From sequence record PZ452614.1: a stretch of 39,092 nucleotides of DNA. One strand, 5' to 3'. Under the pieces are notes generated by a model. It did not search any database. It worked only from the letters and a program-made list of their open reading frames with translations, and was not told where the DNA came from. The position numbers were made by a program, and so were the translations under genes. Shown here piece by piece: positions 14,108-14,566 of the stretch. The stretch's first letter is position 1. Each line of letters starts with the position of its first letter. Origin of the DNA: a phage.

Positions 14108-14134
14108 AAAACAAAGCCAGCTCATCGGCTGGCT
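14108..14134 (-). terminator. Terminator downstream of the minus-strand moron ORF
   Basis: Stem agccagc/gctggct (14115..14134), U-run on the minus strand (plus A-run 14108..14114). Confidence 0.5.
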
Positions 14135-14154
14135 GTTTGTGACATGTCACGGTG

Positions 14155-14526
14155 TTATTGCTCGCTTAACTTCTGCTTCAGCAAGTAACCTTCAAGCATC
14201 CAGATTTTGTTTGCAGCATTCTGCCGGGCAATCTTCCGACCAATTTCCGCATCAAAGTTTTCCGGGCTTGCACAGGCGCTCTCTCCGGTGACGGTGAAGC
14301 CGTTGCGCAGCACCAGAACGCAGAACGTCAGCAGAGAAAGTGATTCGTGCGGCTGGTAGTTTACCTCTCCGCCAGTATGTTTCGCTTTTATGGCTACGCC
14401 AAAGACACCATCTTCTGCTGTGAAATATGCCTCCTGAGCAATAATGCTCTCGATATGGTCTGGCGTAACGCGCGGCGCGGCTAAACCTTTAGCCTGAATT
14501 TCAGATTCAATGTCTTTGTCACTCAT
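14155..14526 (-). CDS. Hypothetical protein (123 aa), moron in antisense orientation between terminase and portal
   Basis: ATG preceded by AAGGTGAG; no recognisable family. Confidence 0.6.
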   Translation of the reverse strand: MSDKDIESEIQAKGLAAPRVTPDHIESIIAQEAYFTAEDGVFGVAIKAKHTGGEVNYQPHESLSLLTFCVLVLRNGFTVTGESACASPENFDAEIGRKIARQNAANKIWMLEGYLLKQKLSEQ

Positions 14527-14542
14527 AGTCTGATCTCACCTT

Positions 14543-14566
14543 AAAAAAATGCCCGGCGAACCGGGC
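14543..14566 (-). terminator. Terminator-like hairpin 16 nt upstream of the moron start codon
   Basis: Stem gcccgg/ccgggc with loop cgaa, followed on the minus strand by a 7-nt U-run. Confidence 0.4.

What the first reader, a model, noticed from the sequence alone, without database searches (positions are those of the whole stretch)
14108..14566. Terminator-bracketed antisense moron between terminase and portal
A 123-aa ORF with a good ribosome-binding site lies on the minus strand inside the otherwise plus-strand late operon. It has a terminator-like hairpin immediately upstream of its RBS (14543..14566), and a 12-bp palindrome plus terminator downstream (14108..14150). I cannot assign the protein to any family. 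Independent transcription units in this position are typical of lysogenic-conversion or defence/anti-defence cargo, and no obvious promoter was found for it.
Basis: inference. Interest (0 to 1): 0.7.

Follow-up and report, generated by a model that had tools for sequence, protein, structure and literature searches.

The report
Known Acb4 anti-CBASS sponge gene
The antisense gene between terminase and portal of coliphage phiV10 is a real but already catalogued member of the Acb4 (Gp49/Sf6 gp66) family of phage proteins that soak up bacterial alarm nucleotides, and it sits in a swap-in slot where related phages carry other such sponges.

Summary
A 123-aa minus-strand ORF (14155..14526) has a Shine-Dalgarno sequence, a GC hairpin with a U7 run just upstream, and a 12-bp palindrome plus terminator downstream.

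The window is Escherichia phage phiV10 and the ORF is PhiV10p03. This exact protein (UniProt Q287B5) is already in the published list of 1,331 Acb4 homologs. An AlphaFold model (pLDDT 89) has SPO1 Acb4 (9E4W) as its top 13 PDB matches. It is 45% identical to N4 Acb4, which binds c-di-AMP.

In 110 related loci the same slot holds Acb4 (44), Tad2 (7), an Acb2/Tad1-like protein (1), several unknown families, or nothing (7). So "anti-defence cargo" is right. "Independent transcription unit" is not shown: no promoter lies between the conserved upstream terminator and the start codon.

The nearest conserved promoter-like site drives an unannotated structured RNA plus tRNA-Arg further upstream. That RNA is the most novel thing seen here.

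The gene itself is already known, and interest is low to moderate.

The parts
14155..14526 (-). acb4 homolog (PhiV10p03, UniProt Q287B5), 123 aa, Pfam PF13876 Phage_gp49_66 / Acb4 family
   Evidence: ORF. Pfam E=6.3e-35, 120 bits against a cut-off of 27. PHROG 322. Profile match to PDB 9E4W, E=5.9e-7; hhalign 95%. AlphaFold2 pLDDT 89.2. The top 13 Foldseek PDB hits are all 9E4W chains. Listed in Chang et al. Table S3. 45% identical to N4 Acb4. Median dN/dS 0.25 among 36 alleles.
14535..14542 (-). Shine-Dalgarno AAGGTGAG, 8 nt upstream of the ATG
   Evidence: Sequence. AAGGTG directly after the T-run is kept in phiV10, phiv142-3, SPN9TCW and VB_ST_E15.
14543..14566 (-). T2: conserved intrinsic-terminator-like hairpin GCCCGGUUCGCCGGGC plus AU7. 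It forms the right-hand border of the variable cargo slot.
   Evidence: Terminator scan; dG -12.7 kcal/mol. Found by pattern in all but a few of the related loci long enough to show it. Two stem pairs show compensatory changes in 7 of 22 diverse sequences.
14139..14150 (.). 12-bp palindrome GTGACATGTCAC just after the stop codon; part of the conserved left border
   Evidence: not enriched by count (13 in the window against 9.9 in shuffles), but present at this site in 43 of 52 loci. It is also kept in the phage with an empty slot.
14105..14134 (.). T3: bidirectional terminator shared by terL (+) and the cargo gene (-)
   Evidence: minus strand. Annotated as a rho-independent terminator on the plus strand in NC_007804. 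Folds on both strands. Two stem variants differ by compensatory changes.
14567..14650 (-). Conserved non-coding block between T1 and T2. It is predicted to form a stem-loop UUUACAGC...GCUGUAAA plus a small hairpin. No sigma-70 promoter was found in it.
   Evidence: ACGCCATTGCGATGAC and GCTGTAAACC are invariant in the first 8 phages aligned, before these motifs were used as the search pattern. Consensus fold with one compensatory pair. The promoter scan finds nothing on the minus strand here.
14641..14686 (-). T1: strong terminator after the tRNA (14-bp stem, dG -22.8 kcal/mol)
   Evidence: Compensatory stem changes, and an inverted loop in L066.
14730..14806 (-). tRNA-Arg(UCU), upstream of and co-oriented with the cargo gene
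   Evidence: ARAGORN; Rfam tRNA, 73 bits. AGA makes up 78 of 708 Arg codons in phiV10.
14807..15130 (-). Unannotated conserved structured RNA leader. Its last helix ends at the first base of the tRNA.
   Evidence: Alignments A4 and A5. RNAalifold predicts 50 pairs, 9 with compensatory changes. In the pair counts, 98.5% of cells are paired and the covariation score is 0.215 against at most 0.085 for slid controls. No Rfam match.
15137..15165 (-). Promoter-like TTGACA-N17-TACCTT, the nearest conserved candidate promoter for the minus-strand unit
   Evidence: It is the only TTGACA-N17-TAnnnT in the window (0.27 expected). TTGAC(A/C/T)-N17-TACCTT is present in 106 of 114 loci, with 25 different spacer sequences. 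It falls below the scan tool's threshold because the -10 hexamer matches only 3 of 6.

Best explanation
The ORF encodes an Acb4-family nucleotide sponge. This is a small phage protein that, by homology, assembles into a homotetramer and sequesters the cyclic dinucleotide alarm signals made by CBASS-type defence systems (3'3'-cGAMP and, in Gram-negative homologs, c-di-AMP), so the host effector is never switched on. It occupies a recombination-prone accessory slot of epsilon15-like phages (Uetakevirus). The slot is bounded on one side by the terL terminator and on the other by the terminator of an upstream RNA/tRNA gene, and related phages carry alternative cargo there. Shown here: family membership, fold, purifying selection, slot polymorphism, and conservation of the bracketing terminators. 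Inferred: tetramer formation, the ligand, and the route of expression. Because no promoter lies between the conserved upstream terminator and the start codon, the most likely route is read-through of T1 and T2 (or antitermination) by transcripts that start at the conserved TTGACA-N17-TACCTT site upstream of the structured RNA and tRNA-Arg. That would give low, constitutive-with-the-RNA expression. The expression step is the weakest part; I put it at about 0.4.
For: Identity: the window is 100% identical to phage phiV10, and the ORF is PhiV10p03.

Family: PF13876 at E=6e-35. Two papers equate PF13876 with Acb4. The exact sequence (Q287B5) is in the published homolog table. A profile of 87 homologs hits PDB 9E4W (Acb4) at E=5.9e-7, with hhalign probability 95%.

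Fold: an AlphaFold2 model with pLDDT 89 has 9E4W chains as its top 13 Foldseek hits, probability 1.00, target-normalised TM 0.58-0.72; the next hit has E=0.2.

Closest tested homolog: N4 Acb4, 45% identical, binds c-di-AMP with Kd 111 nM, and deleting it changes the phage phenotype. All 8 homologs tested by Chang et al. bound 3'3'-cGAMP, and only those from phages of Gram-negative hosts bound c-di-AMP.

Selection: median dN/dS is 0.25.

Accessory status: in 110 related loci the slot holds Acb4 in 44, Tad2 (PF11195) in 7, an Acb2/Tad1 hairpin-domain protein (PF24729) in 1, several unknown families, and is empty in 7.

Bracketing terminators are conserved with compensatory changes.
Against: No experiment on this protein exists.

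Similarity to the only solved structure is remote: 22-28% identity, and the single-sequence search gave only E=0.011.

Of the SPO1 ligand contacts that can be aligned, only F48, F62 and I66 are kept (F77, F91, I95). The base- or phosphate-specific K36, E49, Y57 and T70 become L65, T78, A86 and I99, so the ligand may differ.

A 29-residue insertion between beta1 and beta2 is absent from SPO1 Acb4.

No promoter was found, and a conserved terminator sits directly in front of the RBS, which argues for weak expression at best.

The candidate upstream promoter has a poor -10 hexamer (3 of 6) and lies more than 600 nt and two terminators away.

Some close relatives do without any cargo.
Confidence: 0.8

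Rival explanations
1. Same fold and sponge mechanism but a different target. The protein would sequester TIR-derived (Thoeris) signals or cyclic trinucleotides rather than CBASS cyclic dinucleotides.
For: The guanine- and phosphate-specific residues of SPO1 Acb4 are not conserved. The same slot carries Tad2, an anti-Thoeris sponge, in Klebsiella relatives. Acb4 domains occur fused to Tad2 or Sequestin, and an Acb4-Sequestin fusion inhibits Thoeris mainly through its partner domain.
Against: All eight diverse Acb4 homologs tested bound 3'3'-cGAMP. N4 Acb4, 45% identical, binds c-di-AMP. No stand-alone Acb4 has been reported to bind gcADPR.
Confidence: 0.12
2. A prophage-expressed lysogenic-conversion or superinfection-exclusion gene that benefits the lysogen rather than helping the phage evade defence.
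For: phiV10 is temperate. The gene is antisense to the late genes and insulated by terminators, as many prophage morons are. Some alternative occupants of the slot are membrane proteins (SPN9TCW phrog_11227 and phrog_4780).
Against: The family is characterised as anti-defence in strictly lytic phages (SPO1, N4, Bas69). There is no PADLOC defence match. No promoter was found that could act in the lysogen.
Confidence: 0.05
3. A silent passenger. The gene lies downstream of two terminators with no promoter, so it would not be expressed at a meaningful level and would be on its way to loss.
For: T1 and T2 lie upstream. No promoter was found. The slot is empty in 7 of 110 loci, one of which retains an RBS, an ATG and an 8-codon remnant.
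Against: dN/dS is 0.25 over 36 alleles. The reading frame is intact in 44 loci. The SD spacing is conserved.
Confidence: 0.03

Closest known systems
Bacillus phage SPO1 Acb4 (anti-CBASS 4), PDB 9E4W; Chang et al., bioRxiv 10.1101/2024.12.30.630793
   Same: Same Pfam family (PF13876) and the same beta-sheet plus long C-terminal helix fold (Foldseek probability 1.0). The conserved core motif is NGF.V.G.S......NF..EIGR, and the hydrophobic pocket residues F48, F62 and I66 are kept.
   Different: Only 22-28% identity. phiV10 has an N-terminal extension and a 29-residue insertion between beta1 and beta2. The base-specific contacts K36, E49, Y57 and T70 are replaced. Neither tetramer formation nor ligand has been tested for phiV10.
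Escherichia phage N4 gp49 (N4 Acb4) and Bas69 Acb4
   Same: 45% identity over 107 residues, and the same host species. N4 Acb4 binds c-di-AMP at 111 nM, and its deletion changes sensitivity to PanDA.
   Different: N4 is a lytic schitovirus. Its acb4 lies in a hotspot bounded by the DNA primase-polymerase and virion RNA polymerase genes, not in a terL-portal gap. N4 gp49 carries a C-terminal Cys-rich tail that phiV10 lacks.
Shigella phage Sf6 gene 66 protein and Salmonella phage epsilon15 A0AR14
   Same: Close homologs with a near-identical C-terminal half. GenBank already notes the Sf6 similarity. Both are in the published Acb4 table. A close epsilon15 relative, VB_ST_E15, carries it in the same terL-portal slot.
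   Different: Sf6 is a P22-like phage, so its genomic position differs (from my own knowledge; not checked here). None of these has been tested biochemically.
Anti-signalling hotspot of N4-like phages (bioRxiv 10.64898/2026.06.04.730250) and phage accessory regions in general
   Same: Conserved flanks with swappable cargo that includes Acb4 and Tad2 alongside unknown genes.
   Different: A different phage group and different boundaries. Here the slot usually holds a single gene, is bracketed by conserved terminators, and lies directly downstream of an RNA/tRNA gene.
Lambdoid morons (Juhala/Hendrix definition: promoter + gene + terminator inserted between conserved genes)
   Same: Presence/absence polymorphism between genes that are otherwise adjacent, and a terminator directly downstream.
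   Different: No promoter of its own was detected, and the base composition is not atypical (GC 0.497 against 0.490 for the window).

Membership tests
Acb4 / Pfam PF13876 (Phage_gp49_66) | Matches the family HMM above the curated gathering score | tested here: met
   120 bits against a cut-off of 27, E=6.3e-35, covering profile positions 1-82 of 82. The exact sequence is listed among the 1,331 family members in Chang et al. Table S3.
Acb4 / Pfam PF13876 (Phage_gp49_66) | Protomer fold of the solved Acb4 structure: three-stranded antiparallel sheet flanked by N-terminal helices and a long C-terminal helix | tested here: met
   AlphaFold2 model with pLDDT 89.2 and elements H3-16, H22-27, E29-36, H37-50, H61-65, E67-73, E78-83, H93-122. 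The top 13 Foldseek PDB hits are 9E4W chains, probability 1.00, target-normalised TM 0.58-0.72.
Acb4 / Pfam PF13876 (Phage_gp49_66) | Conservation of the residues that contact 3'3'-cGAMP in SPO1 Acb4 | tested here: inconclusive
   From the sequence alignments and the paper's residue list: F48, F62 and I66 are kept as F77, F91 and I95, and N63 becomes D92 (a backbone contact). K36, E49, V56, Y57 and T70 become L65, T78, C85, A86 and I99. K81 and L89 could not be aligned.
Acb4 / Pfam PF13876 (Phage_gp49_66) | Homotetrameric pinwheel with four inter-protomer ligand pockets | not testable with these tools
   Only monomer prediction was available. All eight homologs modelled by Chang et al. were predicted to be tetramers.
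Acb4 / Pfam PF13876 (Phage_gp49_66) | Binds CBASS cyclic dinucleotides and relieves CBASS defence | not testable with these tools
   Shown for SPO1 Acb4 and eight homologs and for N4 Acb4 with c-di-AMP, but not for this protein.
Moron (independent promoter-gene-terminator insert) | Present or absent between genes that are adjacent in related phages | tested here: met
   phiv142-3 and six other loci have an empty slot of 89-133 nt, and other loci carry unrelated genes.
Moron (independent promoter-gene-terminator insert) | Own promoter immediately upstream | tested here: not met
   No sigma-70-like site on the minus strand between 14527 and 15600. Only 24 nt lie between the T2 hairpin and the ATG. 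The only TTGACA-N17-TAnnnT in the window is at 15165..15137, upstream of the RNA/tRNA gene. Promoters of other types are not covered by the scan.
Moron (independent promoter-gene-terminator insert) | Own terminator downstream | tested here: met
   T3 at 14134..14115 plus a U-rich tail, conserved with compensatory changes. It is shared with terL.
Moron (independent promoter-gene-terminator insert) | Base composition different from the surrounding genome | tested here: not met
   GC is 0.497 for the ORF, 0.490 for the window, 0.547 for terL and 0.514 for the portal gene.
Phage anti-defence hotspot / accessory region | Conserved flanks with variable gene content across related genomes | tested here: met
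   110 loci share the T2-side flank and the terL end. The gap ranges from 89 nt (empty) to about 1,300 nt, with at least 13 cargo families.
Phage anti-defence hotspot / accessory region | Several independent, experimentally validated anti-defence families among the occupants | tested here: met
   PF13876 Acb4 in 44 loci. PF11195 Tad2-like in 7 loci (E=4e-26). PF24729 Acb2/Tad1 hairpin domain in 1 locus (E=3.6e-17).
Intrinsic (rho-independent) terminator, for the hairpin upstream of the RBS | GC-rich stem-loop followed by a U-run, maintained by selection | tested here: met
   6-bp all-GC stem, tetraloop and U7. Two stem pairs show double compensatory changes in 7 of 22 sequences. Found in nearly all related loci. 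Termination efficiency is not testable here.

The most novel reading that the evidence does not exclude
The terL-portal gap of epsilon15-like phages may be a two-slot accessory platform built around an undescribed non-coding RNA gene.

(i) A structured RNA of about 250 nt (window about 15050..14807, minus strand; 50 predicted pairs, 9 with compensatory changes) ends in a helix that abuts a swappable module. The module is tRNA-Arg(UCU) in phiV10. In other phages it is one of at least 7 unrelated 80-200-nt tRNA-like or non-tRNA inserts, all closed by GUGG...CCAC. The same scaffold occurs, unannotated, behind an 11/12 sigma-70 promoter in e14-like prophages of hundreds of E. coli genomes. Its 5' two-thirds lie next to a tRNA in P1-like plasmids.

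(ii) Downstream of this RNA gene's terminators lies the protein slot that holds Acb4, Tad2, an Acb2-like protein or uncharacterised families (phrog_4780, phrog_3163, a 201-aa family, a 146-aa family and others). These would then be candidate new anti-defence proteins, expressed by terminator read-through.
Probability: 0.35. Interest if true: 0.65.

Novelty: already known. Interest (0 to 1): 0.3.

Why it matters
For the gene itself, little changes. It adds one more untested member to a large, recently characterised sponge family, and correcting the label from "hypothetical protein / Gp49 family protein" to "Acb4-family nucleotide sponge" is a routine annotation gain.

It does have a practical side. 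phiV10 is used as a reporter phage for E. coli O157:H7. An Acb4 gene predicts both resistance to cGAMP- or cAA-signalling CBASS and sensitivity to guard systems (Panoptes, PanDA) that fire when c-di-AMP is sequestered.

The context is more useful than the gene. The slot gives a clean, terminator-bounded comparative handle in which three validated sponge families alternate with several unknown families. That is the kind of guilt-by-position evidence that has produced new anti-defence proteins elsewhere.

The adjacent unannotated structured RNA with a swappable tRNA-like module is widespread in enterobacterial prophages and has no Rfam family.

Tried and rejected
- Single-sequence AlphaFold2 gave an unusable model (pLDDT 50.6). 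It was replaced by a run with an 87-sequence alignment.
- NCBIfam found no family. PADLOC found no defence-system match for the protein, and only chance-level hits for other slot occupants.
- A structural or assembly role was rejected. The slot is empty or holds unrelated genes in close relatives with the same terL and portal.
- I looked for a promoter of the gene's own. There is none on the minus strand between T2 and the ATG or in the T1-T2 block. Hexamer candidates found by eye in the block (TTGCGA, CATAAC) have poor partners or are not conserved in the Salmonella and Klebsiella relatives.
- The palindrome as a statistically special element was rejected on counts.
- The annotated plus-strand CDS PhiV10p04 (14549..14800) is probably spurious. 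It runs antisense through T2, T1 and most of the tRNA, and relatives have indels of 4 and 6 nt in this block.
- I checked whether the phiV10 NanoLuc reporter construct had disrupted or used this locus. It replaced recET instead.
- The vB_EcoP_ZX5 paper has no transcript data for this locus.
- Rfam gave nothing for the upstream RNA or for the alternative modules. A full-text search for its conserved sequence strings returned no paper.
- ARAGORN finds no tRNA in 13 loci that carry alternative modules.
- The idea that the tRNA is useless to the phage was dropped. AGA makes up 11% of phiV10 Arg codons.
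Full report
**What the window is.** The 2-kb stretch around the finding is 100% identical to Escherichia phage phiV10 (NC_007804.2). phiV10 is a temperate epsilon15-like podovirus of E. coli O157:H7, genus Uetakevirus. The window is the whole genome circularly permuted: window coordinate = record coordinate + 11877. The ORF is PhiV10p03, annotated "hypothetical protein, similar to gene 66 of Sf6".

**Checking the observation.**
- The 123-aa ORF is at 14155..14526 on the minus strand.
- The Shine-Dalgarno AAGGTGAG lies 8 nt before the ATG.
- A 6-bp all-GC hairpin plus AU7 lies at 14566..14543 (-12.7 kcal/mol).
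- The palindrome GTGACATGTCAC is at 14139..14150, and a terminator hairpin is at 14134..14115.
- The large terminase ends at 14064 and the portal gene starts at 15455.

The palindrome is not unusual by count: 13 such palindromes in the window against 9.9 in shuffles. The hairpins are validated by comparison with relatives rather than by statistics (see "The brackets" below). Both lie upstream of the ORF on the same strand.

**What the protein is.** It matches Pfam PF13876 (Phage_gp49_66) at E=6.3e-35 over the whole model, and PHROG 322. PF13876 was a family of unknown function until Chang et al. (bioRxiv 10.1101/2024.12.30.630793).
- They showed that the SPO1 member, Acb4, is a tetrameric sponge that binds 3'3'-cGAMP (Kd about 157 nM) and related CBASS signals, and that it lets phage escape CBASS.
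- They state that Acb4 belongs to PF13876. A second paper uses PF13876 as the Acb4 family.
- The exact phiV10 sequence (UniProt Q287B5) is in their Table S3 of 1,331 homologs, together with the epsilon15, Sf6 and N4 proteins.

My independent checks agree.
- The single sequence hits PDB 9E4W only weakly (E=0.011).
- A profile of 87 homologs hits it at E=5.9e-7, and hhalign gives 95% probability.
- An AlphaFold2 model built with that alignment (pLDDT 89.2) finds 9E4W chains as its top 13 PDB matches, at probability 1.00 and target-normalised TM 0.58-0.72. Nothing else scores below E=0.2.
- The protein is 45% identical to N4 gp49. As N4 Acb4, that protein binds c-di-AMP at 111 nM and is necessary and sufficient to trigger the guard system PanDA.
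- The 36 distinct alleles found in this slot evolve under purifying selection, with median dN/dS 0.25.

**Limits of the assignment.** Mapping the published SPO1 ligand contacts onto phiV10 gives a mixed picture. The hydrophobic and stacking residues are kept: F48 to F77, F62 to F91, I66 to I95. The base- and phosphate-specific residues are not: K36 to L65, E49 to T78, Y57 to A86, T70 to I99. phiV10 also has an extra helix-loop segment between beta1 and beta2. Chang et al. report that homologs from phages of Gram-negative hosts differ in specificity: they also bind c-di-AMP. So the mechanism is well supported but the exact ligand is not. Tetramer formation and binding could not be tested here.

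**The slot.** Comparison with relatives shows that the gene is accessory cargo.
- Among annotated phages, the space between terL and the T2 hairpin holds different things. It is an Acb4 homolog in phiV10 and in the epsilon15 relative VB_ST_E15. It is a Tad2-like protein (PF11195, E=4e-26) in Klebsiella phage ST512-KPC3phi13.3. It is an unknown beta-rich protein in TL-2011b, a small membrane protein in SPN9TCW, and a coiled-coil protein (phrog_4780) in BUCT711 and EC.W1-9. It is empty in phiv142-3.
- I then fetched 120 viral contigs that share a conserved 31-nt motif next to the slot, and delimited the slot in 110 loci using the T2 hairpin and the terL C-terminus.
- Occupants in those 110 loci: Acb4 in 44; phrog_4780 in 24; an unknown family of up to 201 aa in 17; Tad2 in 7; empty in 7; a 146-aa family in 4; and a scatter of singletons. 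One singleton has an Acb2/Tad1 hairpin domain (PF24729, E=3.6e-17).

Three independently validated sponge families alternating at one site is strong positional evidence for an anti-defence slot. It parallels the "anti-signalling hotspot" just described in N4-like phages. The unknown occupants have no Pfam, PADLOC or PDB sequence match.

**The brackets.** The variable DNA starts right after the U-run of T2 and ends at the palindrome and T3. Both borders are kept even when the slot is empty.
- T2 was found in nearly all related loci. Two of its stem pairs switch together, GG/CC to AC/GT, in the Salmonella-type sequences, 7 of 22.
- T3 exists as AGCCAGC/GCTGGCT or AGCCCGC/GCGGGCT. It has an A-rich tract on one side and a U-rich tract on the other, so it can serve terL on the plus strand and the cargo on the minus strand. 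GenBank annotates it as the terL terminator.
- T1 has a 14-bp stem (-22.8 kcal/mol) with compensatory changes, and in one lineage an inverted loop.

**How the gene is expressed (inferred).** The consensus scan finds no sigma-70-like site on the minus strand anywhere between the ORF and 15600. Only 24 nt separate T2 from the ATG. The 84-nt T1-T2 block is conserved across the E. coli, Salmonella and Klebsiella phages first compared, but it contains no convincing hexamer pair. It is predicted to fold as a stem-loop.

The nearest candidate promoter is TTGACA-N17-TACCTT at 15165..15137.
- It is the only TTGACA-N17-TAnnnT in the window (0.27 expected).
- TTGAC(A/C/T)-N17-TACCTT is conserved in 106 of 114 loci, with 25 different spacer sequences at fixed length. 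That pattern is typical of a promoter.
- Its -10 hexamer is weak (3 of 6).

This site would drive a unit made of a structured leader, tRNA-Arg, T1, the block and T2. The cargo gene would then be translated only from transcripts that read through T1 and T2, or that are antiterminated. I regard this as the most likely route (about 0.4). An unrecognised phage-specific promoter in the block is the alternative. No transcript data for this locus were found in the papers I checked.

**An unexpected neighbour.** The roughly 320 nt between that promoter and the tRNA are non-coding, with frame-breaking indels among relatives, but contain long invariant islands.
- On 23 diverse sequences RNAalifold predicts 50 base pairs, 9 with compensatory changes.
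- Counted independently, 98.5% of cells pair. The covariation score is 0.215 against at most 0.085 for slid controls, and 0 of 500 shuffles reach the observed value.
- The last helix (CAACG...CGTTG) ends exactly at the first base of the tRNA.
- The tRNA position is itself variable. Other phages carry unrelated inserts of 82 to about 200 nt that all begin with GTGG and end with CCAC. Some have a T-arm and a CCA end. None is called a tRNA by ARAGORN.
- The scaffold also occurs at about 83% identity in many E. coli chromosomes with no annotation. One example is an e14-like prophage, where it lies between the cI-like repressor gene ymfK and yfdR and is preceded by an 11/12 sigma-70 promoter.
- Its 5' two-thirds occur in roughly 97-kb P1-like plasmids directly after a tRNA annotated as tRNA-Ile (ARAGORN calls it tRNA-Met, anticodon CAT) and upstream of ban/dnaB.
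- In these distant copies the GAAGAG-loop hairpin keeps its loop while its stem changes in a compensatory way.
- An exact 19-nt core motif is found in 24 species-representative genomes, almost all Enterobacteriaceae.
- There is no Rfam match at any threshold, and no paper in the library contains the conserved strings.

I did not determine its function. One reading is that the tRNA-like module serves as an RNase P processing handle for the upstream RNA. That is speculation.

**Verdict.** The finding is real, and its general reading as anti-defence cargo is right. The protein is nevertheless a catalogued member of a known, recently characterised family, so the gene itself is "already known". Two things here were not turned up by the literature searches I ran: the terminator-bounded, polymorphic slot in epsilon15-like phages (a new instance of a known kind of locus), and the adjacent unannotated structured RNA. 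Both are recorded as leads.

Noticed in passing
window 14807-15130 (-): An unannotated, conserved, structured non-coding RNA lies directly 5' of tRNA-Arg. It has 50 predicted pairs, 9 with compensatory changes, 98.5% of cells paired, and no Rfam family. The same scaffold is found in e14-like prophages of many E. coli genomes behind an 11/12 sigma-70 promoter. It is found in part in P1-like plasmids, next to a tRNA and upstream of ban.
   Followed up: partly
window 14730-14806 (-); compare L022, L054, L058, L075, L076, L079, L092, L129: The tRNA-Arg position is a second variable slot. Between the invariant CGTTGTGG and CCACA..AATCACGCCT, other phages carry at least 7 unrelated inserts of 82 to about 200 nt. 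Some have a T-arm and CCA end, but none is recognised as a tRNA by ARAGORN or Rfam.
   Followed up: partly
window 14567-14650 (-): The 84-nt block between the two upstream terminators is invariant over ACGCCATTGCGATGAC and GCTGTAAACC in the 8 E. coli, Salmonella and Klebsiella phages first compared. It is predicted to form a stem-loop that uses T1's U-tail. Its architecture (conserved single-stranded stretch, hairpin, then the T2 terminator) resembles an sRNA or a 3' external spacer product. Its function is unknown.
   Followed up: partly
window 15131-15233: A 30%-GC region between the minus-strand RNA unit and the plus-strand structural operon is almost invariant across genera. It contains two copies of AATTATTACC and a palindrome TTACCTTTCAGGTAA that overlaps the candidate -10. 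It is probably a divergent, regulated promoter region, possibly the late promoter.
   Followed up: no
window 14549-14800 (+): The annotated CDS PhiV10p04 (83 aa) runs antisense through T2, T1 and most of the tRNA gene. Relatives have indels of 4 and 6 nt in this stretch. It is most likely a spurious gene call.
   Followed up: partly
window 32155-32340 (-): Rfam finds a C4 antisense RNA (77.7 bits) and an IsrK RNA (75.9 bits) side by side, just upstream of the Bro-N antirepressor gene. This suggests a P1/P7-type c4-ant immunity module in phiV10.
   Followed up: no
L003:2151-2498(-), L007:2078-2869(-), L008:2064-2669(-), L036, L026 and others: Uncharacterised families share the Acb4/Tad2/Acb2 slot: phrog_4780 (201-296 aa, N-terminal hydrophobic segments plus a coiled coil; 24 loci), a family of up to 201 aa (17 loci), a 146-aa Cys-rich family (4 loci), and phrog_3163 (115 aa, repeat-rich). 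They have no Pfam, PADLOC or PDB sequence match and are candidate anti-defence or exclusion genes.
   Followed up: partly
L007 (Klebsiella phage BUCT711), between T1 and the conserved block: An extra insert of about 190 nt carries a well-placed SD and a small ORF of roughly 80 aa on the RNA strand. GenBank annotates a CDS on the opposite strand there. This is a third place where cargo can be inserted.
   Followed up: no
L002:2062-2200 (phage phiv142-3): The empty slot keeps T3, the palindrome, T2, the AAGGTG Shine-Dalgarno and an ATG followed by an 8-codon remnant. This looks like the scar of a cargo deletion or a landing pad.
   Followed up: no
L004:2079-2585 (Salmonella phage SPN9TCW_003): The annotated 168-aa start lies upstream of the T2 hairpin. 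The start that follows the conserved SD gives a 138-aa membrane protein (phrog_11227), so the GenBank start is probably wrong.
   Followed up: no
L049 (T2 loop) and L066 (T1 loop): In single lineages the central part of the hairpin is reverse-complemented, for example T2 loop CGAA instead of TTCG, and the T1 apex inverted. These are local inversions that keep the stem.
   Followed up: no
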